Below the pieces are notes generated by a model. The model was given only the letters and a program-made list of their open reading frames with translations, had not been told where the DNA came from and did not search any database. DNA of 64,000 nt from Octopus sinensis (lineage: Eukaryota). Location of the stretch: positions 124,001-188,000 of the forward strand of contig NW_021832227.1 in assembly GCF_006345805.1 (NCBI RefSeq). The letters run 5' to 3'. A program made the position numbers and the translations under genes. Shown one piece after another: positions 22,461 through 49,720 of this stretch. Numbering within the stretch: position 1 is the first letter of the stretch; the number at the start of each line of letters is the position of its first letter.

Positions 22461-23466
22461 GGTACTTTTGTCGAAGTGGTCGCAGTTTTTTTAGGCCTTT
22501 TAAAAAATCTAATAATTTTTGAGGTGGAATATATTATATTTTATTTAAGTCGCTCTATCAATAATTTAAAATATTATTAAATTTTTTACTAATTTATTTT
22601 CTAATTTTTTTAATATTATGGCGAGCATGTACCTAATATTGATATAAACTGGCACTATAGGTCACATGGAAAATTCTGTTGTGGACTTATGCAACATCAA
22701 ATTCCGACAGCTCCCAATAAGTAAGGAGGATGCAGTGCATTTTCTGCAAAATGTGGATATCCTTTCAAAATCACGTATATGTCCGAAGGGACATCAGATG
22801 GAATTAGTCTTGGGACCGAAGCTCAATTGGAAATGCTCAAGAGTTGGTTGTAGAGTCCAACGCGGATAGGAGCAGAGAAACACTGCTCAGTCTAGTAATT
22901 CGATATGTCGAGGTGGGAAGCATTATTTATAGTGACTGCTGGAAAGGTTAGCATTATTTGATTAACATTTAGGGTATTCAACTGATCAATTGGTGAAAAC
23001 GGCTACACACACGAAACCGTTAACCATAAGTAAGGAAATATAATATATTCAGAAAATTCTTTGTGGATCCAACGACGGGAGTGCACACCCAGACAGTAGA
23101 ACGAATGTGGGGAAGTGCAAAATGCAAGAATAAAGCTCAAAGAGGAGCTGTAAGACATCATCTGGGATCTTATTTCGCAGTTTTTTTTAGTTAGTTATTT
23201 TTTCAGAATTATGTGGCGAAAACAAATACAGAACTATAAGGAATGTTTTGCACAGATTGTAAAAGACATAAATTCCTTCTACAGTCCTGGAATTTGGATG
23301 CCGCGTACTAAAAATGACTAAATTGGTTAAATAATTTTTAAATAATTTTAATAACCATTTAAATTATTGATAGAGGGTTATAAATTAAATAATCTATTTT
23401 TCACTAAAAAAATTAATTAATTTTAATTATCTTCTAAAAAAACTGCGACCACTTCGACAAAGTACC
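22461..23466 (+). mobile_element. Merlin (IS1595/ISXO2-like) DNA transposon, internally deleted
   Basis: About 34-bp TIRs GGTACTTT(T)GTCGAAGTGGTCGCAGTTTTTTTAG, 8-bp TSD AAAATTTT; spliced remnant IYSDCWKGY, TVNHKKFFVDPTTGVHTQTVERMWGSAK. Confidence 0.92.
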
Positions 23467-23512
23467 AAAATTTTTAGATGTAAAAGTTTTGTATTATAAA
23501 TGCCAAACTTGG

Positions 23513-23795
23513 TAGCTTTCCGAAGCTCCTGGGTTCGAATCTCACTGTCATCGTTTCGGCCGAAGGTTCCATGCATATTACATGCAGCCCGGATTGACGA
23601 GTGACGCCGTCAATAGTGATACACCACTGCGGAACCGGATGTCTACATCGCCACAAACGAGAAACACAGATGGAGCAGAGACCTCGTTCGAATTCCCCTC
23701 GTTCGGATTAGCTAGTTACTAAATAACATGTTCTCTCTCTGTGTTGCACATGCGGGGCTATAAAGATTATGGCTTTCGTGAAAAGTGCTATAATA
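23513..23795 (+). mobile_element. Candidate SINE (about 280 bp)
   Basis: Direct repeats ATTATAAATGCCAAA(C/T)TTGG at 23493 and 23796, B-box-like GGTTCGAATC at 23532, and a TAATAA tail. Confidence 0.55.
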
Positions 23796-23839
23796 ATTAT
23801 AAATGCCAAATTTGGATTCCAAATTCGTTTTTTATTGCC

Positions 23840-24300
23840 GTGTTTCTTAAAATCCTATCCGTTATTTTCAACTAGGGTTCTCTGTTGGGCGCAATTTCTC
23901 TATAGTTGTCTAGGTCGTCCGCCGACTTTAGTCGCAGATCAACCGTCAATAGGCCTGCATTTAAAATGGTCAAAAGTGTCGCTTTTGATCTTCTAGAGAA
24001 TCTAGACTCTGTTTACACGAAGAAATGATCCATTGTGTTTTTTATTCTAATTTAGTACTTTCGTGATGCTTCTGCAATGTTTTGTCGAGATTGTAATATT
24101 ATGTGGCATTTTTGGTGGTCTCAAAATATCTCATCCGTTAATCCTGAAAATCTAGAATCTTGAAACGCATTTTATATGGACAAAAGCGTTTTAATTTGAT
24201 TTTGACAAAGTTATCCATCAGTATAGAGTGTTATTTTGATACTACTTTAGTGCACCTACAAAAAGTGAACAATTTTCTAAAGTGTGCATTATTTAGGGTA
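23840..24300 (-). mobile_element. 3' fragment of an RTE-like LINE, homologous to 36570-36740
   Basis: Clear nucleotide similarity to 36570-36740; peptide RSKATLLTILN..L..DDL..REIA.NR is typical of LINE C-termini. Confidence 0.6.
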
Positions 24301-25034
24301 GCGCATTGTCAATGTGTGTAAATTCTCATTTTTATTAAAATCAATAATTTATTTAGCTTAAAGGAGAAAGCTTACTTTGTAAAAAAAATTGATTTTCCTG
24401 TTCAGATAAATCATTATGTTTCAATCTTCTTTTGATGGTCAGAAACCATTCAGTTATTTGATAGAGAAATACGTTAATCAAAATTTTGAGTTTAATTACG
24501 TTTTAAGTTAGATGCTACTTATAAAATGATTGCTGCCTTTTCTTGAAATTGTTTTTAGACATCTTTGCCACTAATTCAGCATAGGTTGAGAGGAATTAAC
24601 CACAAAATTTTTATTAGCCTGATTATTTTATAAAAAAATAAATCAATCAAAGCATGAAAAACATTTTTAGTAAGAAAAGATTATTCTGACTGTGCAACCA
24701 ATTTAAATTAGTATTATTGTGGGAGACCAGAGAAAATCAAAGATGGTTCAAAATAAGAAATTGATAGAGAGATAAAAGAAATTTTAATAATATAAAGTTC
24801 TTTAAAAATTCCTAACAAATCTATTTCAGCTTTTATCTGTTGAGGCATCAGAAAGGCATAATCTTTCTTTTGTATGATTTGGATTTTTCAGTGACAGAAA
24901 AAAAATTGGTATTTTTTTAAGCTCGTAATTTTGAGGTATTGCGTATGAAACCTTTGAAATATTGCTGACAAATCAACCACATGTTAAATTATTATAAATT
25001 CTCAATTGACTTATTTAATTTAGATATAACTTCA

Positions 25035-26726
25035 ATGCAGGTAAGACTAAAGAGAAATCTGACTTTTTTAAATGGAGTGGGGATAATCATGGGATATATG
25101 ATTGGAAGTGGCATATTCATATCAGCCTCGACCGTGGTGCGAGTATAATTTCCTTCTTTACAATATTTCAGGACTGTGGTTCGACGGGGCTTAGTTTGGT
25201 GGTATGGGCACTGACAGGGTTCATTTCCTTAGCAGGAGGGTTGTCCTATGGAGAATTGGGATCTGCCATAACAAAATCTGGGGGGGAATACGCGTACTTA
25301 CAAAAAGCCTACGGAAACTTTTTTGCATTCCTATATTCATGGACACTGCTTGTAATAGTAATGCCAGCCAGTACGTCAGTGAAGGCTTTGGCATTCGGAT
25401 ACTACACTCTCAAGTCTATCTATCCTGCATGTGATCCTCCTATATATCTAATACTACTTGTGTCTGATCTTTCCATAAGTATTTGTTTTAATTCATCAAT
25501 GATAGTTCTTCTCGCTGGAATCAACTGTCTGAGTGTTAAATTCTCTTCAATAATTCAAAATATATTCACAGGTGCAAAAGCCATTTCTCTGATTATTATA
25601 ATTGGAGCAGGACTTAACGAAATAAGAAAAGGTAGAAATATAATTATCAGACTAGATCCCACCATTATTTATAATATCAACATGAATGGCACTTCAAATC
25701 AAGCTGGACCTATAGCACTCTCTCTTTACGCAGGAATATTTACATATTCCGGATGGTTGGGAATTGTTATTTAATTGCAGGAATTGTCTTAATTCGATTA
25801 GCGAGGAAATTGAAAACCCCAAAAAGTGTGAATTTTTTAATATTGTAGAAATCTTCCACTGGCTATAGTCTTCTCGGTGGTCTCCCTCATAGCAATATAT
25901 ATGTTTGTCAACCTGGCCTACTTTGTTGTCATCCCCAAACAAGAACTTTTGGCGACCAGCACAATTGGATTAGTTCTCTCTTCATTTTTTAATATTTTAG
26001 TCTTTCGGAAAAGAAATATCAACACTAATGTATACAATCCTTCCCATCTTCGTCACCCTCTCGACCTTTGGAAGTATGAATGGAGGATTTATGTCTTTGT
26101 CAAGGTAATTTTATTTTCCTTTTTTCAGAGCTTTTTTTGCTGCAGGAAGGGACGGAAATCTTCTTCGGTTGTTCTCCCTGGTCACAATAAATCTGAAGAC
26201 ACCAGCAGTCCCCCTGATTTTTACGGTATCTCAACATTATCACTGTAGGCTCTGACTTCCTTTATCATCGTCTCAGCTAATGATATTGATTCGATCGTTA
26301 ATTTTACTACTTTTGCTGAAACTCTGTTCCAGGCGTTGACAATTTCCACTATTTTTTACATGAGAAAGTACGACAAGGAATACAAGCCAGCATTTAAAGT
26401 AACGGTAACCCATCATCCACAGGTCAATATATTTTTTCCAATTTTCTTTATAATGGTCTCAATCTATCTCCTTTCAATCACACTCTATACCAAACCAAAG
26501 TGGTGTGGAGGAGCCTTCCTCATCATTCTGGCTGGAACCCCAGTTTACTTTATTACTGTAAAAGGAATTTCAAAAAATTCAAAATATAAGGAACTTTCAA
26601 GTAAATTCATTTTCTATTGCCACAGAACGCTTTTCGATCTTTTTACAAACTATCCTTGTTTCCGACTTTGCAAAAGAAGAAGATTTGTACCTTACCGAAG
26701 AGGCCACTCTTACTGAGTTACTTTAA
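25035..26726 (+). CDS. SLC7: SLC7 L-type amino-acid transporter light chain (LAT/b0,+AT family)
   Basis: MIGSGIFIS, SYGELGSAITKSGGEYAYL, YPACDPP (heavy-chain Cys), YSGWN..EEIENPKKNLP; about 10 introns of 23-29 nt. An upstream exon cannot be excluded. Confidence 0.93.
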
Positions 26727-26973
26727 CTAATCATACTTGTTTAAATAATTTTGGTGCTATTTAAATCTTAATTCTTTAATTGTGGACAGCAAATTGTGTT
26801 TTTTGTGGGATTATCGACTTCTAGAAAGTCACTAATATGCGCTTTTCAAAAGTTCTAAACGATAACCTTAAGCCAATGAAAAGAACAATAAAGAAATCTA
26901 AGGTTACTTATGGTTTCTCTTGTTATTACGAATTAGTATTTTTTAATTTTGTTATTAATCCTCGGAATGTTAG

Positions 26974-28568
26974 TTAGTAAGTTATTAATAATATATCCCC
27001 GGCTCCGATGAATAGATTTTTGAGTTCCACAGAATTTTTTGTCCCGTCAATGTTCATAATCATTCCATGTGAAACATGAGTTATCTTCGCGACATCTCTT
27101 TACAGTTAAAACAACGTTAGAACATTGATATTGATTGACTGTTTAAAGAAACTGCAATAAAGTATGACAGAAATCCGTCCCGTTTCACAGTGTACATAAT
27201 CACATCGTTTTCAGAATTCACATTATAGCTTCCCCATTTGAATGTATCTTGGTTATAAATGTCCAGATAAAAGGAAATGGTTGAGAATCCTTTAATTTCA
27301 GTTTCAGCTGCAGTTTGAATCTTTACATTTTTATCAAATTCCAACTTTTAGCCGTGCATGAAGAAATTACGTGAAAATCCCAAATTAGTTATTTGAGATG
27401 AGCTAAATCCTTTACTTACAGCTCCATCATTCCAATTCATGATTGGCTGACTATCCTGGGGAATAACAGTAGCTTTTATTAAATAAAAATATCCCTTACT
27501 TGGTACCGAGAGGAGTTCGTCCCCATAATTTATGACGATTGACCACCCTTGGAAGAACATTGGTAAACTTAAGTTTTTGCGTGAGGATGAATTGGTTTCA
27601 TCACTGATCTAAACAGATTTAAATAATTGGTTAGACTGTATAAGCTCTGTAAGGTTTAGTGCTAAAGCGAGTTCCATTTTGTTTGATGTTTTGAGAGCAT
27701 TGGGATACGGTTGTGCATTCGAATTTATTAATAATTAAATCAAGCTTTTTGTGCTCTTGCATGTTAGTTTTTAACTGCATTGCAATTATCCTGAAAATTA
27801 TTAATGTATCACTACTTGTCCGATGGAAGTACTTTTTTCAAGTTTTGGTAAACGGAAGAAAATAAATTCGGATCAAGGTCGTCTAAAACAATTCCGTCGA
27901 TGTAATACACCACTTTCAACAATGCAGATTTCATATCAGCATTGCTCATACTTTCTGTTTTGAAGTCAATTAGAAGATTAATGTCTGTCAATTTAGAATA
28001 GTGAATTCAAACCATATTGGCGTAATGCTTTGCTTAAAATAGCCAGGTCTTTATACGGCTCCAACGTAGGGACCAATTTTTTTTCAAAAACATCGGTTGT
28101 TTTGAAAACTTCGATCCAAATTGCACCAACATGAAGAGATCTAAGATAATCTAATTTTTGAATAATTCCTAAAAATGTCAATGGAATGTTTGACCGTTTA
28201 AGTCTCCAATTCCGTCATTATCAGAGTCAAAAAAAGATTTGACATTGATTCGGTAAATGACGGAGTTTTGGTACCATTTTTGATCCCAGGGAACAGTACA
28301 GATAGGGTTAGTAGTCACCAAAACAACCACGGATATGATCAATGCGACAAATACCAATGCAAACAAGGCCAGCAGACCATATCTTAGCTAAAAATAATCT
28401 TAAAAGCACTACCCTTCTCCAGAATGGAGTATTTGACTGAGTCAAAATCTCCTCGACTGATAACCCTGTGGGGGAATCGTCTTTCTCAACTCTTTGGCGA
28501 ATATTGTGACCTTCTTTCTCATTTAGATCTAAATTAATATTTTCAGTGATGCAATCGACTTTGGACAT
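26974..28568 (-). CDS. SLC3: SLC3 heavy chain (4F2hc/rBAT-like type II membrane protein with an alpha-amylase-like ectodomain)
   Basis: TGLSVEEIL..NTPFWRR, single TM, NPIC..KWYQNSVIYRINVKSFFDSDNDGIGDLNGIIQKLDYL, YGDEL, PIMNW..GFS. Confidence 0.9.
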
Positions 28569-28859
28569 TGAAAATACGATCAAATTATTATAATTTATAT
28601 TAGCATATAATGCCGCATTTTAATTCCGCTAATTTTATATTCCCTTTTAATAACAACAATTCATATCATTTGAAAAATTTAAAAGTCACATTGGTCACGT
28701 ATTGGGTCATAAAGTCACACCCGGAAATATCGATAAAATGTATGATAAGCTGCCTTTTCCAGAATTTTAATTTGTTGCCTATTAAACCAAAGTCCTTAGT
28801 AGATATGACTCAGGTGTATGATTGGTTTTGTGGTTACATAAATTTTTATTAATAAAAAA

Positions 28860-29850
28860 AGCAAATTAACCAATTAATTGCTTAACTAAGTATGAGTCTT
28901 AGAAATGATAAGCGAGTGGCACTCTGTGCACCACTTTCCGTTCTTCCTCCTCTTCTCTGGGTCTGTAGACCTCCGAGAAAGTGCAGTCGAGCGCCTCTCG
29001 TTGACTAAATGTCAAGAAATAGCTTGATCGGCAAGCATCAAACGGAATACTCTCCAAAGTCCTCTTAAGAACAGTATAAGCCTTTAGAGACTTATCTACT
29101 CCCAGCTATCTTAAGTACCCCTTGTGGTATTTAGTGACCAGTCCATCCCGATTCATCACACACGGAATGACATGGACTTTGCACTCAGCCCTAGCTCGTT
29201 TGCAAGGAGGTCATACTTCCTCCTTTTCTCCACTTCCACTGTCTGCAAGCGATCTAGGCACGTGATGTCCACTTCCACGACAACTATCTCCCCTGGTGAC
29301 CTTATCGCGGACCACAATATCGGGTTTATTGGGCTGGACAACAATCGAGATGCGTATTGAGTATCCACCTTAATGCAAACCTTTGAGTTCTCACACACTG
29401 ATTGAACTCGATGGATTTGCCACTTTCTGAACCGCCTCAAACCAACTTATTGCAGAGCAGAAGATGGAAAGACCTCACCATTTTTTATGCCTCCTTGTGT
29501 AATCATGGTAAAGAATACTCACACAATTCGTGGATAAATGGTCAAGGGTCATTGCTCTACTTTTATAGTGGTTACACTGTTTTTCTTGACCATTAAAAAA
29601 TTTTGTTGACCATTAAAATCTTACAAATATGAGAGTTATTTTCATATTTTAGCCATGTTGATGACGACGATACGTGCGGATTGTTCAGATTGCTAAAAGG
29701 AGTTTTATGAAGGACTTTTAAGTTGATCTTTTTAATTAGGGATTCTCTGCTAAGTTTGATCAAATCCTTCACATTAACTTGGGTTGCATCCAGACCATAT
29801 TTAGACGACACGTAGCCTTTTATGATCCCGTTCGGCCTCAACTATGTAGC
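28860..29850 (-). mobile_element. R4/Dong-like RLE LINE 3' fragment
   Basis: KPDIVV..EIVVVEVDIT..RLQTVEVEKRRKYDLLANEL endonuclease motif; same family type as 46900-50193. Confidence 0.8.
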
Positions 29851-30134
29851 GAAAAACAAAATAAAGAAATCTTATTTAGAGGCTGATATTATTAAATTTA
29901 ATGGAATTTCAAATGATAAAAATCCCAACTTTATATACATTTATAATAAATCTAATAAATTTTAATAATTAAAATATTGTGATTAGATCGCTCTAGTGAG
30001 GCCAATAAAGTTAATGGAATCAAAATATTTTCATATAAAATTGACTGCTAAAATCTAATATTAAATTAATATTTTTATTTAATTTTAATTAATTGTTAAG
30101 ATAAAATCAAATAAAATAATTTATAATTCAAAGA

Positions 30135-30803
30135 ATGCCTCTTCCTGTCTACCTTTACGTTCCTAATCTTATTGGTATTGTAATAAACAAAAAATTTATT
30201 TAACAGGTTATTCAAGAATATTATTCCTTTTTTTATTTGTGTATTATTCTCTTTCCAACTGTTCCCTGGCTGCATTATATTATTGCCTGTCCATGGGCCT
30301 CGATGCTCTGGACGGCTATTCTGCAAGGATTCTAAACCAAAGTTCAACTTTTGGGGCATTTTTGGATATGATTACCGACCGAATTACATCAGCATTTCTT
30401 ATTTCAATTCTTGTAATTTTATATCCGGATTATCGGCTTATTTTGTTTTTGAGCATGTTTATCGACATTGGAGGACATTGGATATTTTTTGCAGCGTAAA
30501 TTTTTTTGTTTATTTTACAGTTCTTTCCAGGAGGGGAGAAGCCATAAAGCAAGTTCCGCAAATCCAGTTCTCTGCCTTTATTATGGATCCAAGGTTGTCC
30601 TCACTTCACTCTGTGCTTTAAATGAACTTTTTTATATTCTTTTGTACGTCAAAAATTTTTTTGAAAGTATTTTTTGTAATGTTTTTTTAGTTTCGAATTA
30701 TTTAATGTTTCTATTATTTCCGTTCGCACTTGTTAAAACTTTGATTACTGTTGTCCACGTTTATGAAGCCTATAAGATGTTAACGTCTTTTAAAACTGAT
30801 TAA
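30135..30803 (+). CDS. CDIPT: Phosphatidylinositol synthase (CDP-alcohol phosphatidyltransferase)
   Basis: MPLPVYLYVPNLIGYSR, DALDGYSARILNQSSTFGAFLDMITDR, SHK, LCALNELFY. Confidence 0.93.
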
Positions 30804-32042: not shown

Positions 32043-34399
32043 CAGCGGTTCTCAACCTTTTTTAGACTGGGGACCACTTTTGCACTATAAAATTTTGTGG
32101 GGACCACCTTAAATAAAATAAACATTTTTTGGTATTAGCGCACAATTTTTGGCCTCGTCAGGGCCAGGTTTAGACATGTTCAAATATTTATTATAAAAAT
32201 AACATGAACATTATGAAAATAACAGAAAATTTAATAGTAATTTAGTGAGATTTCTGATCTTGTTTGCTCAGAATAATTTTACTTATATCAGGCTCTATGT
32301 TCGACAAAGCTACTCGCATATCATCTTGTACCCGTAGTCTATTTCTATATTTTGTTTTTAGAAAAGTCAGACACGACATCGCCATTTCACAGTGATAAGT
32401 AGTGGGGAATGCAAGTATTGATTCCAATGCAGTTTTACTCAAAATGGGAAATTCTTTCGCCATCTGACACCTAACAATAAAAAGTAATTATTTATGAGAA
32501 TACCAAAAATCTAATAATGAAGTACATTTGAAAATAATCTGAGCAGACTGATTACATTGAAGTTCAATCAAGCTCTGCTGAAAATTGAGTTCCTGATATT
32601 CTTTAAATGAGGTCAAGAAAGGTTGAACGATCCAGTTTGGAATTGGGTCTTCAACAGGAAAATAATCATCAAATTTTGTCTTGAGATTTTCCAGATGTTT
32701 GATTATCAGACTTAGAAGAACATTATCCGGTGGGTTGTGTCCGAGATGATATTCAAGCATTGGGAACATTGATGTTATTCCTTTTTTTATTTTCATTATC
32801 CACAATAATAACTTTTTTTTAAAAGCCATTATTATTTGATTGACTTCGACAATTGATATATAAAGACCTTTAAATAAATTAATAAAAATTTTACCCTGCA
32901 TTGACAAATTAAACTCATTTAAAATGTTAAAAAAATCGGCAAGATAATACATTTTCGATTTAAAAGTAAAATCATCGAATTGATCGGCCCAATCATGCTG
33001 CATATTATCACGCAAAAACAAAGAGATCGCAGGAGAAAGTTCACAAATTCTCGAAAGGATTTTCCCCCTTGAAAGCCACCTAATTTCAGAATGATAAAGT
33101 AGTATAGAATGATTACTTCCTAACTCTTCACAAAGAGTTTGGAAAATTCGATGATTAAGTGGTCGAGATCGAATATAGTTTATCACTTTTACAATAGTGT
33201 TTAGTGTTTCTCTTAACGACGAACACATAGTTTTTAAACAAAGTGCATATTTGTGCAATGCACAATGTCTTGTAACAATATCAGGAACCAAATCCTTAAT
33301 ACGAGTAACAAGTCCAGATTGATGACCAATCATCGCAGGTGCACCATCAGTACATATAGATCCAACTTTATCCCATTGGATTTTATTCGTCTTCATAAAA
33401 TTGTCAAAAATATTAAAGATGTCCTCTCCACGAGTGTGTCCATCCATCTCCAAACAAAATAAAAACTCATCAATAATATTCTCATCATCAACAAAGCGAA
33501 CATAGGACACAAGCTGACAGACGTTAGAAATGTCAGTTGACTCGTCCAATTGAATACTTATTCTGCATTTACTTTTATTGATTCTTTCAATTAATTGCTT
33601 CAGGATATCGGATGACAATTCTGAAATTCTACGGGAAATTGAATGGTATGTCCTTAAGTTTGGTAACTGCATCCGGACCAAACAAAATTCGAGCCATTTC
33701 AAAAGCCGCTGGTTTGATTAACTTTTCACCAGAATTATGTGCAGCTTTGTTTTTTGCGATAATCATTGAGACATATTTGTTTTAGATATAAATTAAAATT
33801 ACAGCATATGATGCTTCTAATCTCGGTTTATCTTGAGATTTATTAAACCACTCAAGCTTTGGCTGTAAATCAAACTTCGTTCTTTTGACTTTAAAATATT
33901 CATGTGAGGAAGAATTTTCTGGGTGTACAGACTCTTTGTGGCGCCTAAGTTGAGAAGGTTTCAGTGAATTGTTTCCCAAAATTTTATGGCAAATCATGCA
34001 TTTTGCCTTTATTTCATTATTTGGGGCAATGAATTTAGTGAATCCAAATTGTACGTAAGAATTCGACCAAAGACGACGATTCTTGTTAACCATAACTAGA
34101 ATGATAAACCACGCTAATCAAATCAGATTAATTTCAATGTTTTTGATTTATACTTAATTGTACAATTAGTTTTAAATTTAATATATTGTTATTTTTCGAA
34201 AATTTCTGGGGACCACTAAAAATTTTCTGGGGACCACGATTGAGAACCGCTTGATTAATTTCAATGTTTTTGATTTATACTTAATTGTACAATTAGTTTT
34301 AACTTTAATATATTTTTATTTTTCGAAAATTCCTGGGGACCACTAAAAATTTTCTGGGGACCACTAGTGGTCCCCGGGGACCACGGTTGAGAACCGCTG
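32043..34399 (-). mobile_element. Buster/Charlie-type hAT transposon, near full length; transposase 34093-32242 with 3 micro-introns and a frameshift near 33645
   Basis: 15-bp TIRs CAGCGGTTCTCAACC, 8-bp TSD ATATACAG; BED finger CMIC..H...H, LDESTD, CTDGAPAM, HCALH, RWLSRG, FPTTYHCE. Confidence 0.96.
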
Positions 34400-34404
34400 A
34401 TATA

Positions 34405-34620
34405 CAGTATGGTCCAAAAATATTACACCCCTTGAAATTCATTAATTTTTTTAAATATATGTATAATTAAACTCATTTTGATTTTCTACAAAATGAAAAA
34501 TTCATTAAACTCTAAAATAGATATAATTCATAAAAAATGATTAAATAAATCTATTATTCTAACAGATATAAGATTTTTTCGACAAAAAAACAAGGGGTGT
34601 AATATTTTTGGACCATACTG
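34405..34620. mobile_element. Tc1/mariner-type MITE (216 bp)
   Basis: Perfect TIRs of about 30 bp, CAGTATGGTCCAAAAATATTACACCCCTTG, flanked by TA. Confidence 0.9.
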
Positions 34621-35039
34621 TATATCTCGCCTATGTTTTTTGCACTAATCGATTTTATCAAAGACATTGTTTCCAAAAGCTTCTTAGACACACAAACTGG
34701 ACAGCGTTAAGAATAACTCCAGAATTTTTGGAAAAAGAGAAATTTCTAATGTATTAAATGATCATTGGACGTCGAATGAAGATTTGGCGGTTGTCCAAAT
34801 TAGCAATAAAATTGAGGTCCTCTCCCGGTATCGAGTTTTCTAAAATCAATTAATTAATCAATATTAAAAATATTAAACTGATAAGTCAACTTATACACGT
34901 TTTCTAGTTAATTTTTTCCACATATCAAAGTCGTTTTCATTGTTTACAAAATCACTTTATTCAGGTCTACTTAAACAGTAAAGATTTTGAAATAGCAAGA
35001 CTATTCTTGAAATTATTACGTAACAATTCATTCGCAGAT

Positions 35040-36378: not shown

Positions 36379-36479
36379 ATATTTTCGTTTTTTTTCATTA
36401 AAATTGGGCTTTAAGTATCTTTTTGAATGATTAGTACAGTTCTATTTAGTTAATCCATTCAATTAGTTTATATTATTAA

Positions 36480-37850: not shown

Positions 37851-38215
37851 CATAAGTGCAAAAGAGGCACTTCACCACCTTAGCCACGTAGTTTTTTTAC
37901 GAATGGTAATTGTGGAAAATCTTTAAGCATTTCCTATTAGACTCAATATTGATGTAAAAGAAAAACATTACGACTACTATTATTTCTTTCTCTTCCGCCT
38001 GAATAAATAAGAGAGTGGAAAGCTGTTCTAAAAAGACATCGATTATTGCGCTTTACAAATGACTGTCGTGTTTTGGGAGGACTATGCTACATTGAGTATG
38101 AATAACATCTAAATTATACTGTAATAAGAGATTCGAATATTTTTAAAATATTTTGTTTATTGGGAACTTCAGAGGTTTAACTTTCTAAAAGTCATTATTT
38201 TACTGACAAATAATA

Positions 38216-39388
38216 TGTCACAGTCCGTTTATGAAACACGCCGTTAATGAAACGCCAACATCAAATTAGAAAAAAAATTGATTTTGTCAATAAAAAATTT
38301 ATAAATTGACAAATACCTGCGCTGGTATTGAATTGAAATGTTTATTTTCTATGTAACAAACTCGTCACTAGATTAAAAGGGGAGAGAAGAGCCAAACGAA
38401 ACCAAGGAGACGGAAGAAACAAGTTTGTTTGCTGATTGGGGTCAATTCTAATGGGACACCAGATGTCCCTTCGATAAAAATAACGACCCCTTGCACCACT
38501 ATTTATTTAAGTGATGCAACAGTTTTTCAATGGATCGTACCGATCCCTCCAGCTCTGGGGTTAGTTTGGATTTTAAGTCCAAGCCATGTGCCAGTTTAAT
38601 GGCATATCTCCGCGTTTTCTCCAAAAGATCAATATGTTTCTTTCCTTCGCAGCTCCGAACCATCCTTGAGATCCATAGATCAGGAAGGGTTCTATACACG
38701 CAGAGTATACGTATAAGAACGTACGTATAAGAACGTTTCCTGCGCTGGTATTTGGGTTTAAATATATTCAATTAAAAAATTAAAATCGATGCCAAAGCAG
38801 AATGTGCTTTAAAACCGATTTCATAAATAAAAATAATATTTTAAAATTAATAATTGATATTTTAGAATAATGAGAAAAAATTCTAAATGCTTCATAATGT
38901 ATTAAAATGTCAAAACAAGAATCTTCTGAAGGAGCAAGCCTGTCTGCACAGTTCATTTGTGATTAGAAGACCTAATTTTAGAGATTGAAACGAGAAATAG
39001 CAATGAGATCTGTCAAATTATTACCCCCTTCACAACCTAAACCAAATTAGCGTTCAGTATTCATTGATTTTACTTTTTCTATTAAGGTCTACTTATAAAT
39101 TATTTTATGAGATTCAATGGAAAATTTAAGTTATTTCAATTTTAATTTTAAATTATGTTAAAATTTAAAATCATTTTATAAATATATTTTTTTACTTTGC
39201 CTTGTTACCCTATTCAAAGCACCTAGTGTCCATTTAACGGCGTGTCCATTCTATGGACGGGCACATTTATAACTAATTAATCATTTCCAATGACGATTTG
39301 TATTAATTTATCTTTTTTTCGATATGATTTTTTGTCAATTTGATGTTGGCGTTTCATTAACGGCGTGTTTCTTTATCGGACTGTGACA
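38216..39388. mobile_element. Non-autonomous TGT..ACA TIR element (Ginger-like)
   Basis: TIRs of about 60 bp, TGTCACAGTCCG..GAAACACGCCGTTAATGAAACGCCAACATCAAATT; 5-bp TSD TAATA. Confidence 0.85.
38330..38738 (-). mobile_element. 5'-truncated LINE 3' end nested in the Ginger-like element
   Basis: 14-bp TSD CCTGCGCTGGTATT (38316, 38739); peptide LLEKTRRYAIKLAHG, related to 47382-47850. Confidence 0.8.
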
Positions 39389-40654
39389 TAATATAGACAA
39401 ATTAAAATTGTATTACCATAGAACTAATATTCTTACAACAGAGTCCTCTACATGGTGTGGTTTTTTTTAGTTTTAAGTTATTCCAGTTTCAACTTCTTTA
39501 GAATATATATTGCTTTATTGTGAGTAACCTGGCGATCTATGTCAAAATTTTACTTCCAATTTTTTCAAAAAAGTTTCTTCGACCAACCAAATAGATCATT
39601 ATTCTACATAACAAAAGTACTTCTAAATAAACAGGATTCTCGACAACAGAAAACTTTTAACTTAATCGAGTCGATTCCGGTAATATAAAATTAGCGCGAA
39701 GAAATTAGACGACCTCTCTTTTCTCGAACGAAAGTGAAACAGATTCACGTTGTTCGTAAAAAACATACTTTTATTCCTTTAGAGTTGTCGTAATTTGTAA
39801 CAATTATTACTTGGTGACAAATAGTATGTAATTCATTTAAAAAATAAAATGGATTTGATTAGAAGATCCACTCAAGGTTTTATAAGACTTTAAATCAGGA
39901 ATTTTTCAACAGCCATGCCACATGTTTATATGCAGAATCTTTTTAAAAACAACTCAAATTACAGAACTCTTTGAATTTAGTTTTCACGTCAAAAAAGAAA
40001 TCTTCGGCAACATCGAAGAACGACTCAAAAATACAAAAAATTCTAAAGAAAAATGGAAACCGCAAAATTAGGCTTCAGAAACATCAAAGAAAAGATAGAA
40101 ATCAACGATCGATCAAAATATTAGTTGCTTAAACTCTCAAATGTTGCTGAAACATGCTAAGACCTTGATTTTAGTGTAACAGGGTATTTTGTGATGATAT
40201 TTACCGCCTTTCCGACAGACCCCTTTAGTTGCTCGGAAAAGGCGATGAAGTGATAAAACTCTTTAAAAATCGGACTGTGAACTATATTTCCATAATGACC
40301 AGACTCTCAGTAACTGCGCCAAAATATTATACAAGCTCAAAAATCGCAACTTTAAAAACTTTTATCTAGAAAAAAATAATCCCTCACGAAATCTTTAATG
40401 CCTCAGAAGAACAGGAACCACTGCTAGTTTTCCTAAAAGAATTGATTCTTATTTAAAACTCTGTTTAGAACATAATTCTTTGTATCCTCGTTGCGAATAT
40501 TATTATCTACCGATAGTCCTGTTCTATTTATTGTCCTCATTTCATTATACCTATTCAAAAGGCATTCCAAAGAATTTTTAATTATTAAATTTGATTAAAT
40601 GTGGACATATAAAACAAATAGTTCTCTTGTTGCCACGATTGATCAATTTAACTA

Positions 40655-41499: not shown

Positions 41500-41520
41500 C
41501 TATCATTAAAAATAATAAAA

Positions 41521-42562
41521 TTATATTTTTTGTGACTAGCCAGAATTTCATAGTGTTTACATTGGGATCAATATCCTACCAAAAATAAAAAAAAGTATAA
41601 GACAAGAGACTTCAAGCGACCATCTGACAATTCCGGGAAATAACGGAAAAGAGATGAGTGCCTACATTTGGCACCCAAGTACTAATGTAAGAGATACATC
41701 AATTTTTTAGAACTCACTCCCAACATACTGTAATCTTGACTGAACGGAACAGATTTCACCAGGCAAATTGACTTTTTGTAGTGCTATGGCATTACCTCAG
41801 TTGAGAGTATTGCTCTTAAAGTTCCATGGACCCATAGAACTCTTACTCGCATTAAACTCAATACACTGATCCTCGATATGCGTTGAAAATGTGAATCGCC
41901 TTCTCTTACCCATACAGAAATATTGCTATTGAGACTTCCCAAATTTTCACACTATTTCTACTCTACAAGTCCATTTCATGACCAATCTACCCACTAAGAA
42001 TCGTTCTGTCCAAGAAATAGATAAATAGTCATAACCGACCGCTGTTACAACATTCTCATCTTTCGATCAATCATCGTGAGTGCTCTTCACTAAGTACGTA
42101 TATTTTTGGCCTACTTTTTTACATTGAGACTATTGAGTCAGATTGAGTGTTTCGCCGTTGAAAGAGGTGAACAAAAGGAAGAAGTGAGAAAATGGAAATG
42201 ATTGACTTTTTGGAAAAGTTGAAGAGAATCGAGTCCTTATAATTAATACACACAAGCCAGTGGATGTGCTAGGCTTGAATGTAGGGGTTCCAGAAATTCT
42301 ACTTTTATTGGTTTTTTCGTTCATGAAATGTGAAATCAAACTTGAAAAAACTGTGACGAATTCTTCGTTATTTATTAACCCAAATAAGTTATTCAGTTCG
42401 ATGTGATTTTAGGAACCAACTAAAAATATGTTTTTAACTACTTTATGATTCAAATTTGTTTCCAAGTAATTGCGTCCCTAAGTAAAGTGACTGTTGCTCA
42501 GATTCAACGACTAATTCAAGTGAGTCGTCGATAACGGGTCCACACTCCGTATATAAAAACAT
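41521..42562 (-). CDS. Probable unidentified spliced gene or pseudogene; model unresolved
   Basis: Coding-like composition with several plausible GT-AG micro-introns (e.g. GTGTGAAAATTTGGGAAGTCTCAATAG). No family recognised and no clean frame assembled. Confidence 0.35.
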
Positions 42563-43298
42563 GATATCTACAATTCTGTGCTATATTGTAATATTTAAAA
42601 CGATTTAAAATTATAAGATTGTTTATATTAATCAAATTTGAATTAAAAAGGACAAAAATGAGCAAATATCTTTGTATTCTCATTTGTTTTATTTATTATA
42701 ATAAAATTCCTACAATTCTGAATTTAGGTCATTTTTAATGCTAATAAATTTGCCAGAAAACTAAAAATTAGGAATATTTTAGACTTTTTCGGAATAGACT
42801 TAGACATTCAATTTCGGAATTAATTAGAATAACTTATTTTCTCTCTTGTTTTCAAAAAAAGTTGTGTGGCTGGCAGAAAAGAAATTTTAGACATCTTCGT
42901 GCTTCTAGCTACGCGGACGTTTATGCTATAAATAGAATTATGTATTTTAGAAAGTTCAATTCAGATAGAAAAATAGGGTAGCTTATTGGAATTGAAAAAA
43001 TTTTTGTTCAAAACTGATAAAATATGATAGATATTGACTAGATAACAGGAAATAAAATGTTTCCTCATTTATGATTTTAAATAAAAAATTATCTCATTTA
43101 TTATAATTGAATTAATAAAAATATAAATCTTAAAATAATTTTAATTTATTATATTAATAAATGGTTAACACAAATATTAATTTCATAATAGATGTCTCTA
43201 CTACTACTATAACGTTTAGTATTGATCCCAACTTGGTATGTACTGTCTTTATGCCATACTACCTAATAAAATTGACCAATCTTAACAAAACTAGATAT

Positions 43299-44154
43299 AT
43301 GGACCCTAAAACACGAGAAACGGTGCTGGCATGCTATAGCCAGTCAATAGAGGCCATGCTATACCAATCCAATAACGTTAACTCATTTTGCACAGCAGCA
43401 ACACATCTCAATACCTCTCTAAAGTTCAAAAATGCTAAAATCATGTTTTAGAATCACGCCGTCGAGATTTAAGAGCGAAGTGAGACGTGCGCTGAGTAAA
43501 ATGTCAAGATCTGGCCAAAAGTAATCCAAAATTAACAGAAACTTCAATTTTAGAAGTTTAAACCATAAAATTCTTCGACAAATGTTTTCCCGCCATCCAA
43601 TTCCCTCCAAAAACGAAACTTGGCCTTTTATTCGTCCTGAATGTCTTGTGGCCGCGGATCAGTTTTTGGCGAAACTTGAGCTTTCGAAAAAAATCATTGG
43701 AAATTCCACCGACAAGCAATTTCAGATCAAAATCCAACCAGTTACGTTGTCCTCCGACAATTCACATGTCCAAATCTGTCCACCAGATACTGACAGAGTC
43801 GATTCGAGTGTCCAAGTGAACGGAGAAAGTTTTAGAGAGTATTTTATGAACAATTTTGTGCCAGTTATACCATCAAAGATTAAATTTCCTGAATCAGAAA
43901 TCCATTTCCCAGGTTTGTGGTTAATTAAGACGATTTCTATTCTTAGAATATGAAGGGACTTCCCCAAGGGTCTCCCTTGATCAGCCAATAATGTTGGAGT
44001 ACGAAGAGCCAGTGGGAGAGAATAACATTTCTGAGTATCATAACGGAAATATGTCCCCACCGACAATTACCTCATCGTATGTCTTAAGCTGGGACTATAA
44101 TTTGTAGTATTAGGCTGGATGGACGTTGTGATAGGGATTGACTTATGTGCTTGA
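43299..44154 (+). CDS. EMSY: EMSY-like ENT-domain protein
   Basis: Spliced ACYSQSIEAMLYQ...LKITPSRFKSEVRRAL resembles the ENT consensus AYAGVISALRAQ...ISTERHRAEVRRAV. Confidence 0.6.
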
Positions 44155-44226
44155 GTGTGTTTTAATGAAAATTTATTGTTATTTGTTTTAAATTTAATTA
44201 AAGAATTATTCGTTAAGGTGTTAGAT

Positions 44227-45320
44227 CAGCGGTTCTCAACCTTTTTTAGACTGGGGACCACTTTTGCACTATAAAATTTTGTGGGACCACCTTAATAAAA
44301 TAAACATTTTTTGGTATTAGCGCACAATTTTTGGCCTCGCCAGGGCCAGGTTTAGACTGTTCGAATATTATTATAAAAATAACATGAACATTATGAAAAT
44401 AACAGAAAATTTAATAGTAATTTAGTGAGATTTCTGATCTTGTTTGCTCAGAATAATTTTACTTATATCAGGCTCTATGTTCGACAAAGCTACTCGCATA
44501 TCATCTTGTACCCGTAGTCTATTCTATATTTTGTTTTTAGAAAAGTCAGACACGACATCGCCATTTCACAGTGATAAGTAGTGGGGAATGCAAGTATTGA
44601 TTCCAATGCAGTTTTACTCAAAATGGGGAATTCTTTCGCCATCTGACACCTAACAATAAAAAGTAATTATTAATGAGAATACCAAAAATCTAATAATGAA
44701 GTACATTTGAAAATAATCTGAGCAGACTGATTACATTGAAGTTCAATCAAGCTCTGCTGAAAATTGAGTTCCTGATATTCTTTAAATGAGGTCAAGAAAG
44801 GTTGAACGATCCAGTTTGGAATTGGGTCTTCAACAGGAATTTTCTGGGTGTACAGACTCTTTGTGGCGCCTAAGTTGAGAAGGTTTCAGTGAATTGTTTC
44901 CCAAAATTTTATGGCAAATCATGCATTTTGCCTTTATTTCATTATTTGGGGCAATGAATTTAGTGAATCCAAATTGTACGTAAGAATCCGACCAAAGACG
45001 ACGATTCTTGTTAACCATAACTAGAATGATAAACCACGCTAATCAAATCAGATTAATTTCAATGTTTTTGATTTATACTTAATTGTACAATTAGTTTTAA
45101 ATTTAATATATTGTTATTTTGCGAAAATTCCTGGGGACCACTAAAATTTTCTGGGGACCACGATTGAAAACCGCTTGATTAATTTCAATGTTTTTGATTT
45201 ATACTTAATTGTACAATTAGTTTTAACTTTAATATATTTTTATTTTTCGAAAATTCCTGGGGACCACTAAAATTTTCTGGGGACCACTAGTGGTCCCGGG
45301 ACCACGGTTGAGAACCGCTG
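44227..45320 (-). mobile_element. Internally deleted, near-identical copy of the 32043-34399 hAT
   Basis: Same TIRs, its own TSD TGTTAGAT, and about 1.25 kb missing at the junction CAACAGGAA|TTTTCTGGG (about 44839). Confidence 0.96.
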
Positions 45321-45399
45321 TGTTAGATAAATTATTTAATTGATCAAATTTATAATTATTCAATTTACGTCAATTGACTTAAAAGATTAATGGTAGTAA

Positions 45400-46325
45400 A
45401 TAATCAGATCCTTCCTCCTCCCTCTGGATCGCTCACGGACTCAGAGCTTTCATACGGCACATCGTTGTGGACAGATTCGGCTAAAAACCCCGTTGACCTA
45501 TGCCTATGCGCGAATGGACGGAGATCAGCAGCTCTCAGTCTTTCCGGTACTTACTGTCTCACGGAGACCAACACCGCGTGCTTGTCTGTTGTCTGGAGCA
45601 TCTCCACGGACTGGCGCCTGGATCAACGCCTATCCTTCCCCCGCAGCTGGAACCTTCCTGGACCCAGACTGTTAAGAATCGGAATATCTCTCCGACTCGG
45701 CTTGGACATTTGCCAGCCTCACCAATGCCGTTGCGGGGCTCATATAGACCGCAAAGTCTACACCCGCTCTCCTGCCGCAAATGCCCTGGGAGGTTACCCA
45801 GGCACGGACAGCTTAATTCCATAATAAAGCGTCTGCTCGAGGCAACCGGCATCCCGTGCCAGCTGGAGCCCTCTGGCCTTAACAGGGGCGATGGAAGAGG
45901 CCGGACGGCGTCTCGCTCTTCCCGTTCAGTGCGGCAAAGCGATCGTCTGGGACGCGACATGCTCTGACACTTTTGCGTCAACATGCCTTCTCGCGTCCGC
46001 GATCGAAGCTGGCACAGCGGCGAGGAGGGCAGAGACCCGGAAGAAAGACAAGTACGCCTCGCTCGCCGACAGATTCCTCTTTGTGCCTGTTTCAGTCGAA
46101 ACATCAGGCACATTCGGCCCAGCCACGCTACGTTTTCTCACGAGAGAGGCCGTCACCTCGGAGGATTAGAAACGACCCCCGTGAGGTCAATCGGCTTTTT
46201 GAGCGCGCGTCTCAATAGCCGTACTCAGGGGGAACAGTTTCTCTATTCCTCTGCGGCTAGTAGCTGACTTCTTGTTCCATTTTCTTTTCATTGTAATAAA
46301 CTATTAAGATTAAAAAAAAAAAAAA
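45400..46325 (+). mobile_element. CRE-like RLE retrotransposon, 5'-truncated, poly(A) tail
   Basis: LRIGISLRLGLDICQPHQCRCG, HPLSC, RH, WDATCSDT, KKDKY, VETSG; A-run of about 14 at 46312-46325. Confidence 0.9.
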
Positions 46326-47381
46326 TTAGTTAAATGTTCGTCTTTTGCCGATTTGAATTCTCGATGAAGAAATAAATTTCTTCATAGTTCAGGATTGTTG
46401 TTAATCTTTCAGGAACCCACAAAAGATTACTTAAAACAATTGCTTTTTATTTTAGAAATTGATTTTTTGTTCTTAAGAATATGATAATAATCGATAATTT
46501 TAAAAAAGCACGTTATTTTCTTGTGGTGTTGTATGCCAGATTTTGCTATTTATGGAAATCTAATCCTATGGGCCCCCCTGCGGGAAATAATAGTATGAGT
46601 CTCGAGGAAGCAGGGAATTTGTCTGTCGGGGTGTACTAAATTGTGTGGTTAGTCCTGTCGATGGAGTCAGGAAGATGACAATAAACCTCCACTCATTGTC
46701 AGCTACCATCAGCGAGGTCGAATCCAGTTGGATTCAGAGCCGTCAAGAAACTGATGATTCCAAACAAGACTGATAAAGCTAGAACGATCACCCAAAAGCA
46801 AGAAAATGTAGCACATTTGAACGTGGAAATTTCCTGATTCAAAGTTTGTCTTGAGGAACTAAATGTCCAAATTGAGAAGGTGAAAGCTATTCCAAGAGAC
46901 TCCTAGGAACCAACTCCTAGGAGATTATATCCCTGGGAAATGGCCTAACCTATACAAGATAGTAACTAAATGCGTCAACTTGAAACTATCGGACTTTGTG
47001 GATTTATTTGGTCTAATTTCCGACAACCAACTTGGGACGAGAAGGCGATGCCAGGGTGCTAAAGAACAGGCCCTGATTAATCAATAAGGAATATCCGAAC
47101 AATCTCTACTTGGTATGGATTGATGTCAAGAAGGCATTCGATTCTGTCGATCATGCCTTTTTATTCCATGTGTTAGAGTGTTCAGGGGTCCCTTCGTGGA
47201 TAACGGCCTTTGTGAAGAGTATTGTTGAAAGATGGAATGTAAACCTCCAAATTGACCAACGAAAAATTGGCTGTGTAGAACTTGGTTGTGGGATCCTACA
47301 AGGCTACTCGTTATCCCCACAAATGTTCGTTATGGTCATGGATTCCCTCTGTCGAATATTAAATGAGAAATTTCCAAAATT

Positions 47382-47850
47382 TGAAGAGAATAGAATAGTG
47401 TTTATTGAGCGAAAAGAAAAAGAAAAACAAGGAAGAAATCATCAACGGGGAGATAAAGACAAGGCACCGAAGTGTCTCTTTCCATGCGTATCCCCAATTT
47501 GTAGTCATAGTTGACAACGATTCTCCAAGACCATCCGGATCGTGGGCACAGAGGATTCTTGTGAGTCTTTTAACCTTCCGTCAAGTTGTACTCCGTAAGC
47601 CAATTTCATAACTAAACGTCTTGTCTTTTCCAACTGTTCGATCAGGTAGTCACTCTCCTCCGTACCGTACCAGCCCTCGTAGCCATATGTGAGGACTGGC
47701 TGCACACACGTTTTGTATACTTAGATGTACGTTTCCGGATCCAGATGGAACCTGGTTAAGCTTTTGAGGATCCTCACACTCCTCTTTCTCTGATTTGCTA
47801 TATGATCTGCGTACGAGCCACGACAGTTGATGGTTGCTCCCAGGTAATAA
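47382..47850 (-). mobile_element. LINE 3' fragment nested in the R4-like RT
   Basis: YLGATIN..., YKTCVQPVLTYG..W..QLEKTRRLVMKLAYG; interrupts LNEKFPK|ILINQ of the host element. Confidence 0.75.
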
Positions 47851-48657
47851 AGATTTTGATTAACCAAAGTAACCCTAATATGGAGATTTACTCGACGAAT
47901 CATTTGTTCTTTGTGGACGATCTTAAACTACTTGCATATAAAGAGAATAAGATTGTAGAAATAATGAAAACAGTCCGGAAGTTTTTTGAAACTGCCGGGT
48001 TGTAGATGAATCCTCAAAAATCTGCGTCCAACCTGGACAATCTTTCCTTCTGTAAACCTATAGAAGGGGTGGAAGGATATCGTTATTTGGCGGTGTTAGA
48101 CGTCAAAGGGAGTGTGTCCTCAAAGAAAGTTATGGGGTCAATCCTACTGAAAGTTAAGGAAAGAATAATCAATCTTTGCAAAACAAAACTCTGCAAACTT
48201 GTTTCATGCCATAAACGAATATGCACTATCGCTATTTATATTGGCTTGATCGACATTGAGCCTTCCAAGTTCGAAAATTGACCTGCAAATCAGGGGCTTA
48301 CTCGTCTCCCTCGAAATACACTTAAAGCCGGCAAACAAAGAGCGGCTGTATTTATGCAGGAAAAACGTTGGAAGAGGATTAACGTCGATTGTTTTTAAAT
48401 GTGAATTGATGCTATTCCAGTTCTTGGGTGGCCTTGAGAGGATGTCTTCAGTTTGCGTGAGGACGTCGGGGATTCTGCGATCAATTAAAACAAATAAATT
48501 GCACTTATCAACGATCGCAGGATTTCTAGCCTCCAAATATGGTATTGAGAGAAGAGAAAGCATATGTGTGGAGTCTATAAAAATCGCCCAGAAGAATTGG
48601 TTAATCAAGAGGATCGAATGTAAAGCTCTGCATTCCATATTATTCAAATGTCTAAAT

Positions 48658-49720
48658 CAGTGATTCTCAACCGTGGTGCACGTGCACCAATTTTGGTACA
48701 TGGAAAAAAATTGGTGCAGGGAAAAAAATTGATACATGGTATTATTTTTATTTTTTAAATATTTTTTGTTATTAGTAATTAGTTCATTACGATGGTTAAC
48801 CATTATCATTTGATATCAATAAATACTCGTGTTAATCACATGACTGGTGGTAATTCTCGTACTCCTCGGATTTATAGTAAAGATTATTTGAAATAAGGAT
48901 TTATCCTTTCCAGTGGAGACAAATCTAAGCCTTCTTGCATAATCTGCAAAAATTCTTTGGCTAATAGTTCGATGAAATTGTCAAGATTAACACACCATTT
49001 GAGGACTAAACATTCAAATCTAGTCGGATCTTCGTCTGAATATTTTCAAATATAAAAAACAAGATTGATGAGCCTACTACCTTTCAAAAGTTAATCAATC
49101 ATCATGCTCTTGCACGAAAAAGTATTTCCTATAACCTATTTCATAGATGGGTTACTTGCATTCTACACAATTGCCCATATCGTTGCTAAAAATAATGCTA
49201 CCCATGTTTCGAGTGAATCGTTAATAATATCTTCTTTCGCAGTTGTTTTACAAGATATGTTGGGACATTATCCATCTGAAATTTTACAAGTAGTGTGACC
49301 ATTTTGATGTTCCTATAATTTACCTTTGAGTAATGATACGATTCGTCGCCGAATTGACGAAATGGCTGAAAGCGTCGAAGATTCCTTAAAGCTATACTTA
49401 GAAAAACTGTTTTTTCCATACAGATTGACGAATGTCTGGTATGTGATAATAAATCTATATTAATGGCCTATGTTAGGTAGGTATTTTAAATAATATTTTG
49501 TTTAGATTTTTTGACGAATAAGTAGTTTTTGTGAAGAGGTTTTGTTTATTAGACCTTTGATAACAGATTCTACCGAAGAGTCAATTTTTAACGTATTTTG
49601 AAGAAAAACAAATTTCATTTTCCAATCTAATCATGTGTGCTACAGATTGGGCAATGGTCATGGTTGGGAAGTACAAAGGATTTGTCTTGAAAATAAAAAT
49701 GTTTGAATTTAATTCATATT
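48658..49720 (+). mobile_element. Second Buster-type hAT family: left TIR plus degenerate transposase, nested in the LINE
   Basis: TIR CAGTGATTCTCAACC after GTCTAAAT; PSCIIC..LANSSMK..HLRTKH, PLSNDTIRRRIDEMA, SIQIDE, CATD. Confidence 0.85.

What the first reader, a model, noticed from the sequence alone, without database searches (positions are those of the whole stretch)
22461..49505. Three independent DNA transposases carry host-type micro-introns
Seen: the Buster hAT has introns at 33773-33802 (30 nt), 32868-32894 (27 nt, in frame so least certain) and 32471-32503 (33 nt). Merlin has 22947-22972 (26 nt) and 23030-23052 (23 nt). The second Buster family has 49477-49505 (29 nt). Removing them restores conserved motifs (SDCWK-GY, VNHK-KFFVDP, LLDFW-CQM, MAYVR-F). 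The retroelements here show none. Inference: these transposons gained or shrank introns inside this lineage, implying long residence, possible ongoing intron gain, dependence on the host's special splicing (a barrier to horizontal escape) and a possible control point for transposase expression.
Basis: partly seen in the sequence, partly recalled or inferred. Interest (0 to 1): 0.7.

Follow-up and report, generated by a model that had tools for sequence, protein, structure and literature searches.

The report
Parasite transposons splice tiny introns
Three jumping-gene families in DNA that likely comes from a tiny octopus-kidney parasite (Dicyema) carry 22-33-base introns; four of the six named ones are cleanly missing from RNA-like sequence data, and because most outside relatives lack them they were likely gained mainly inside the parasite's lineage long ago.

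Summary
All six inserts exist at the stated coordinates; five read GT..AG, and the sixth ends AT here but AG in 11 of 16 copies. Four are cut out exactly in RNA-like contigs: all three Buster1 introns, including the in-frame 27-mer, and Merlin 22947-72. The window likely belongs to a Dicyema genome co-assembled with its host, so the size is the known host trait. Full Merlin copies have five introns and Buster2 at least five. Intron-bearing Busters form five lineages with mostly private positions (one clade rejected). Micro-intron Merlins form one clade with six old sites. One outside Merlin (L244) shares two of them, so part may be inherited and shrunk. Not supported: ongoing gain (no intron-less copy in the Buster1 family; no introner or duplication signature) and a barrier to transfer (intronless families thrive on the same contigs). 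One hint of control: the 22- and 23-nt Merlin introns each stay in a contig whose neighbouring introns are spliced. Window copies are defective. The scan noted this pattern before on other pieces of this genome; I did not find it in print.

The parts
22461..23466 (+). Merlin DNA transposon, internally deleted copy (395 nt missing between 22860 and 22861, which held introns 1 and 2); terminal inverted repeats and 8-bp target duplication
22666..23321 (+). Remnant Merlin transposase coding region (309 aa in full copies L029, L033 after removing five introns)
22947..22972 (+). Merlin intron 3, 26 nt, GT..AG, phase 1; left out in RNA-like contig X2, present in DNA-like contig X3
23030..23052 (+). 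Merlin intron 4, 23 nt, GT..AG, phase 2; needed for the frame; not seen spliced, apparently kept in an X1 contig; same position as a 53-nt intron in outside Merlin L244
23181..23206 (+).
32043..34399 (-). Buster1 hAT transposon, full length, 8-bp target duplication with central TA; coding region 34093-32242 broken by an 11-nt deletion near 33641
33773..33802 (-). Buster1 intron 1, 30 nt, phase 0; acceptor AT here, AG in 11 of 16 copies; left out in X1 and X2 contigs that carry the AG-subfamily allele at 33703
32868..32894 (-). Buster1 intron 2, 27 nt, in frame and stopless, phase 1; left out in X2
32471..32503 (-). Buster1 intron 3, 33 nt, phase 2; skipped in X1 and X2 (short sides of 27 and 19 letters)
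44227..45320 (-). Second, internally deleted Buster1 copy that keeps intron 3
48658..49775 (+). Buster2 hAT copy, decayed and 3'-truncated (right end approximate)
49122..49146 (+).
49290..49316 (+). Buster2 predicted intron, 27 nt, phase 0; acceptor AT here, AG in L043
49477..49505 (+). Buster2 predicted intron, 29 nt, GT..AG, phase 2; present in 6 of 6 aligned copies covering it; no RNA test
16621..16645 (-). Host control: 25-nt GT..AG intron of a PDZ-domain gene, left out in X1 and X2, kept in X3
16922..16947 (-). Host control: 26-nt GT..AG intron, left out in X1 and X2, kept in X3
21808..22004 (+). Host controls: 22-nt (21808-21829) and 23-nt (21982-22004) GT..AG introns of an Snf7 gene, left out in X1
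30496..30520 (+). Host control: 25-nt GT..AG intron of a CDP-alcohol phosphatidyltransferase gene, left out in X1

Best explanation
These are ordinary GT-AG introns of 22-33 bases in the transposase genes of Buster and Merlin cut-and-paste transposons, four of the six seen cut out in RNA-like contigs, in what is likely a Dicyema genome, and most were likely gained one at a time, long ago, after each transposon lineage settled there. Cut-and-paste elements are copied as DNA, so an intron gained in an active copy is handed to all descendants (established knowledge). Retroelements pass through spliced RNA and stay intron-free (established; light check here). New introns likely landed at, or were later tuned to, G|G-type sites and were held at the host's size of about 27 nt. 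The molecular source of the inserted DNA is not recoverable here. Two Merlin sites and one Buster site recur in separate lineages and may be older introns that shrank, or parallel gains.
For: Splicing: (4 junctions; host introns behave alike; DNA-like X3 keeps the Merlin and host introns it covers). Lineage: Pax6 on contig C9061 is 391/408 identical to Dicyema acuticephalum Pax6, with 7 introns of 23-30 nt; that contig carries a 99% copy of the window's Merlin. Gain: 0 of 8 Buster and 0 of 25 Merlin loci on chromosome-scale host contigs had an intron call, against 20 of 53 and 35 of 54 on small contigs. Intron-bearing Busters fall in five lineages among intronless ones; one clade is rejected (p-AU 3e-101); 10 of 11 positions are private to one lineage. 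Micro-intron Merlins are one clade (100/98) nested among 12 outside Merlins lacking all six sites where covered. Sites 67, 204, 239 and 265 were absent from 73 of 73, 80 of 80, 70 of 70 and 64 of 64 outside loci covering them. G|G context at 6 of 17 sites against 3.6% background (p 2e-5). Median length 27 nt over 35 introns, equal to the Dicyema sp. median (PMC6543705 passage).
Against: L244 has introns at Merlin sites 130 and 222 in the same phases. A double chance match is unlikely, and site 222 is not a G|G site in outside loci. Intron loss in transposases is documented and can remove all introns at once (PMC4158355). L251 lacks an intron that its sister L254 and L256 share. Buster site 99 occurs in two lineages whose union is only weakly rejected (p-AU 0.027). 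For Buster the only outgroup DNA is 8 host loci; the 93 full-length database proteins have no gene structure on record here. True donors are unsampled (nearest named or unnamed outside Buster 44-50%), so gain in an earlier host cannot be excluded. X1 and X2 are judged RNA from their behaviour; their library is not on record.
Confidence: 0.7

Rival explanations
1. The introns are largely inherited: ancestral transposases were intron-rich, most lineages lost their introns through reverse-transcribed copies, and the dicyemid lineages kept and shrank them like host introns.
For: L244 shares sites 130 and 222 with 50- and 53-nt introns. Presence patterns inside the dicyemid Merlin clade need at least one loss or parallel gain. 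L251 lacks an intron that L254 and L256 share. CACTA precedent. Dicyema Pax6 and Zic introns sit at conserved positions (PMC2222250 passages).
Against: L244 is not sister to the dicyemid clade (p-AU 0.004; group named after a first tree was seen), so inheritance needs several losses. Four Merlin sites have no outside match. Buster lineages have private positions, which would need an ancestor with 11 or more introns.
Confidence: 0.2
2. Intron gain is going on now, through an introner-like mobile element or tandem duplication of exon sequence.
For: Family-private sites. Young, near-identical copies of intron-bearing and intronless families coexist. All three Buster1 introns are multiples of 3 (noticed after the fact). 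One intron (Buster2 site 498) scores 0.67 in the duplication test, above all 34 controls.
Against: No intron-less copy among Buster1 copies. Introns at different sites are no more alike than shuffles (best 9 among 559 pairs; shuffled maximum 10). Duplication score overall 0.39 against 0.38. Same-site introns of distant Merlin families no longer align.
Confidence: 0.07
3. The segments are unspliced insertions or sequencing artefacts in dead elements.
For: The window copies are defective, one named segment ends AT, and 23030-23052 was not seen removed.
Against: Exact removal of four segments in X1/X2. Positions are conserved across diverged families while the sequence turned over. Clean frames result in single copies.
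Confidence: 0.02

Closest known systems
Ultra-short spliceosomal introns of dicyemids and myxobolid myxozoans (PMC13644364, PMC6543705, PMC6736024, PMC2222250)
   Same: GT-AG ends, 22-35 nt, AT-rich, weak signals; median 27 nt here and in Dicyema sp.
   Different: The host introns examined in those papers sit at conserved ancestral positions and the passages read do not describe transposase introns. Here they lie in transposase genes whose relatives mostly have none.
Buster group of hAT transposons (ZBED8/FAM200/SCAND3-like; grouping as in PMC3942097)
   Same: BED finger, catalytic motifs, short inverted repeats, 8-bp target duplication with central TA (the TA rule is recalled).
   Different: Host-chromosome Busters here are unbroken frames; five dicyemid lineages carry 1-5 micro-introns.
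Merlin superfamily (IS1016/IS1595-related; PMC8101967)
   Same: About 310-aa DDE transposase, terminal inverted repeats, 8-bp target duplication.
   Different: 5-6 introns in 0.93 kb (5.4-6.5 per kb, like host genes). 77 of 80 outside loci had no convincing intron. The survey's main text never uses the word intron.
Intron-bearing transposases: P element, Ac, CACTA, BuT2 (PMC4158355, PMC3942097)
   Same: DNA transposases can carry host-spliced introns; retention regulates the P element; gain and loss both occur.
   Different: Those introns are of ordinary size and loss prevails in CACTA. Here several lineages of usually unbroken elements carry micro-introns, and regulation is not shown.

Membership tests
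Spliceosomal (GT-AG) micro-introns | GT..AG ends | tested here: met
   5 of 6 in the window; the sixth AG in 11 of 16 copies
Spliceosomal (GT-AG) micro-introns | Removed exactly from RNA, present in DNA | tested here: met
Spliceosomal (GT-AG) micro-introns | Removal by the U2 spliceosome through a lariat | not testable with these tools
   needs lariat reads or knock-down
Buster hAT transposon | 8-bp target duplication with central TA and short inverted repeats | tested here: met
   12 of 12 copies with both ends show central TA; 11 exact duplications, 1 with a mismatch; TA rule recalled
Buster hAT transposon | BED finger and Buster-type DDE transposase | tested here: met
   zf-BED; ZBED8/FAM200/SCAND3-like hits at 36-50%; full-length fit to a profile of 93 such proteins
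Merlin transposon | IS1595/ISXO2-like DDE transposase of about 300 aa | tested here: met
   309-aa frame; its exon hits loci also found by PF12762 and an ISXO2-like named protein
Merlin transposon | Terminal inverted repeats and 8-9-bp target duplication | tested here: met
Introner elements | Near-identical intron sequences at unrelated sites | tested here: not met
   559 cross-site pairs no better than shuffles; host introns genome-wide not screened
P-element-type splicing control | Stage- or tissue-specific retention of one transposase intron | tested here: inconclusive
   22- and 23-nt Merlin introns each kept in one partly spliced contig; no raw reads, no stage data
Dicyemida (host lineage) | Dicyemid marker gene on the same sub-genome | tested here: met
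   Pax6 96% identical to D. acuticephalum on C9061; link to the window's contig is through a shared 99% Merlin family and micro-introns, not a marker in the window

The most novel reading that the evidence does not exclude
The dicyemid genome fills invading DNA transposases with micro-introns until they reach host density, sometimes at the same sites independently, and the shortest, poorly spliced ones (22-23 nt in Merlin) throttle transposase output as in the P element. Its many transposon families would form a datable series of independent intron gains in an animal.
Probability: 0.2. Interest if true: 0.72.

Novelty: new variant of a known kind. Interest (0 to 1): 0.46.

Why it matters
How new spliceosomal introns arise is a long-standing open question, and clear gains in animals are scarce. 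Transposase genes that usually arrive unbroken give a known starting state, many copies and many independent lineages in one genome. Here 17 sites in two superfamilies are mapped and four junctions are seen spliced. It also shows that a parasite known for genome reduction has likely added introns, not only shortened old ones. A practical point: these contigs are annotated as host genes (a database protein 98% identical to Buster1 is labelled as an octopus protein), so host transposon surveys may include parasite elements. The intron size itself is known.

Tried and rejected
An amino-acid permease search did not tell the lineage. No RNA holder was listed by the run search; X1 and X2 were judged RNA only after laying. 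Parts of the window without contig cover were not used as evidence. Viral collections gave one weak Merlin hit and no Buster, so no further Buster outgroup DNA. Break points in 150 representative Merlin proteins did not cluster clearly at the intron sites, which is uninformative. L250 starts at site 131 but its upstream DNA is unrelated, so it is no evidence for an intron. Doubtful aligner calls: L091/L107 (36 nt, in an open frame), L103 (58, 42 nt) and L095 (40 nt) exceed 35 nt and are in no count; L096 (site 507), L259 and L271 are left out of the site counts, but L096 is among the 20 of 53 loci and was held in the AU-test groups. Introner and tandem-duplication origins were tested and not supported. 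A myxozoan source was considered and dropped once a bilaterian-type Pax6 matched Dicyema. A minor-spliceosome reading of the GT..AT intron was dropped: spliced contigs carry the allele of the AG subfamily. No second haplotype of the window's PDZ gene was found in G000. Two ciliate papers checked for transposases with tiny introns gave no such passage.
Full report
Observation. All six segments are at the stated places and lengths. Five read GT..AG. The first Buster1 segment ends AT in the window, but AG in 11 of the 16 copies that cover it. Removing the introns from single natural copies gives an open 590-aa Buster frame (L004) and a 309-aa Merlin frame (L029, L033). The window copies are dead: Buster1 has an 11-nt deletion and the AT acceptor, Merlin lacks 395 nt, and Buster2 is frameshifted and cut short.

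Whose DNA. G000 has 2.7 Gb, but all matches of the three families lay on small contigs, none on the chromosome-scale ones (only the best 40 candidates per search were scored). The window is dense in animal genes. A Pax6 on contig C9061, which also carries a 99% copy of the window's Merlin, matches Dicyema acuticephalum Pax6 at 391 of 408 residues and has seven introns of 23-30 nt. A database protein 98% identical to Buster1 is labelled as an octopus protein. So the window likely belongs to a dicyemid co-assembled with its host; this is an inference by linkage, as no marker lies in the window itself. Introns under 30 nt are known in dicyemids: median 27 nt (PMC6543705, passages), mean 26.2 (PMC2222250, passages), and see PMC13644364 (parts 1-2 of 3 read) and PMC6736024 (passages).

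Splicing. Three runs hold the region; none is on record as RNA. X1 and X2 behave as RNA: they leave out host GT..AG segments of 25 and 26 nt, which X3 keeps, and X1 also leaves out host segments of 22, 23 and 25 nt. In them, 30 nt at 33771 (both runs), 27 nt at 32866 (X2), 33 nt at 32468-32502 (both; short sides of 27 and 19 letters) and 26 nt at 22945 (X2) are removed. The contigs spliced at Buster1 intron 1 carry the allele of the AG subfamily at 33703, so the AT form is not shown to splice. Two contigs look partly spliced. One X2 contig has 369 letters where genomic copies have 393-395, which fits removal of the 26-nt intron 1 with the 22-nt intron 2 kept, while intron 3 is removed. One X1 contig of 308 letters fits intron 5 removed and the 23-nt intron 4 kept in 6 of 8 copies tested, and neither alternative in any. 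A further X2 contig keeps intron 5. These are single assembled contigs; unspliced precursor or read-through from neighbouring genes would look the same.

Buster comparison. I wrote a profile-to-DNA aligner with a GT..AG state; it recovered the three Buster1 introns unprompted. It was run on 61 Buster loci, chosen from the rows, not all of them. Intron calls of 35 nt or less appeared in 20 of 53 small-contig loci and 0 of 8 chromosome loci. In trees of 113 and 40 rows the intron-bearing loci fall in five lineages with sites (profile column, phase) 99p0/393p1/518p2; 99p0; 91p1/139p0/193p2/331p0/498p1; 162p0/406p2; and 373p2, scattered among intronless families. One clade is rejected (p-AU 3e-101). 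Site 99 is shared by two lineages whose union is weakly rejected (p-AU 0.027, long branch, named after the tree was seen). An intronless young Buster family sits on the same contigs, including the window's own, so introns are not needed in this genome. Outside DNA for Buster is thin: 8 host loci. Full-length products on large assembly contigs suggest unbroken frames, if those gene calls ignore introns, which I assume and did not check.

Merlin comparison. Of 79 G000 loci (picked), 35 of 54 small-contig and 0 of 25 chromosome loci had intron calls. The dicyemid families share six sites (67p1, 130p1, 204p1, 222p2, 239p2, 265p1) in different subsets, at about 45-55% protein identity, with intron sequences that no longer align between distant families. 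Among the best 80 of 305 metagenome loci, sites 67, 204, 239 and 265 were empty in 73 of 73, 80 of 80, 70 of 70 and 64 of 64 loci covering them. Sites 130 and 222 were filled in 1 of 79 and 1 of 80, both in L244, with 50- and 53-nt introns in the same phases (introns over 700 nt would be missed). The micro-intron Merlins form one clade (100/98 in a 42-row careful tree), nested among 12 outside Merlins without those introns. Joining L244 to it is rejected (p-AU 0.004, named after a first tree). Site 130 lies in a Gly-Gly pair that forces a G|G context, so parallel gain is plausible; site 222 has no such context in outside loci. I therefore leave these two sites open between parallel gain and inheritance with losses. 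L254 and L256 share another intron that L251 lacks, so turnover happens outside dicyemids too. Merlin intron density (5.4-6.5 per kb) equals that of the host Pax6 (5.7 per kb); Busters have 1.7-2.8.

Mechanism. Shown: the introns exist, are inherited by all copies examined, and four are spliced. Established: cut-and-paste elements are copied as DNA and keep introns, while retroelements do not. Inferred: most introns were gained stepwise after each lineage settled in the dicyemid line, long enough ago for sequences to turn over. G|G context is enriched (6 of 17 sites against 3.6%), which fits proto-splice sites or later tuning. No introner signature and no overall tandem-duplication signature was found, so the source of the inserted DNA is unknown. 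No Buster1 copy lacks an intron (16 of 16, 14 of 14, 20 of 20), so current gain is unsupported. Neither intron-bearing nor intronless parasite families had host-chromosome matches, so the barrier idea is untested rather than supported.

What is known. Intron-bearing transposases are familiar: the P element, Ac and CACTA (PMC4158355: abstract, Discussion part 1 of 2 and section 22) and BuT2 (PMC3942097, passages). The barrier idea is already in print for Ac. The Merlin survey PMC8101967 does not mention introns in its main text. Searches for dicyemid plus intron plus transposon, dicyemid plus transposase, Merlin or Buster plus intron, and transposase plus tiny introns (listings only unless named above) showed no description of micro-introns in dicyemid transposases. 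No supplements were read, the original Merlin and Buster papers were not seen, and subscription journals and Repbase are not covered, so any of these may hold such gene models. This scan has reported the same pattern on other pieces of this genome; those notes are unchecked and are not used as support.

Verdict. A real feature: host-sized, spliced introns in two transposon superfamilies of a likely dicyemid, mostly gained in the lineage, old rather than ongoing, with two Merlin sites possibly inherited. New variant of a known kind; interest 0.46.

Noticed in passing
window 16313-28837 versus 22495-23058 (table 8): X3 contigs differ from the window by about 6-9% and one X2 contig by 5% in host genes, but by under 1% in the Merlin pieces; X1 is within about 1% in its two long host-gene contigs. 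This could be mixed dicyemid lineages, divergent haplotypes or recent transposon exchange. No second haplotype was found in G000.
   Followed up: partly
L001-L004, L016; window 33773: A Buster1 sub-lineage with a GT..AT first intron has spread (5 of 16 copies) although retention gives a stop; L004 is otherwise an intact frame. Likely moved by AG-type copies.
   Followed up: partly
L042 and L045, profile column 375: Buster2 has 81 extra bases holding two nested GT..AG stretches; possibly a sixth, longer intron.
   Followed up: partly
L244, L254, L256, L251: Outside Merlins from unnamed metagenome contigs with 50-53-nt introns; L251, sister to L254, has none.
   Followed up: partly
P0024: A database protein labelled as an octopus ZBED8-like protein is 98% identical to this likely dicyemid Buster, and its model skips profile columns 323-490.
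   Followed up: no
window 34399-34626, 38210-39394, 19800-21290: Three further inverted-repeat elements: a 228-nt MITE-like element beside Buster1, a 1.2-kb element without a recognised frame, and an element holding a non-LTR fragment.
   Followed up: no
L194 (C12762), L198 (C8591): Two more paired-box genes on small contigs, one with a homeobox downstream, besides the Pax6 of L193.
   Followed up: no
window 13181-13660: A 45-nt tandem repeat of about eight copies inside long minus-strand frames with no Pfam match.
   Followed up: no
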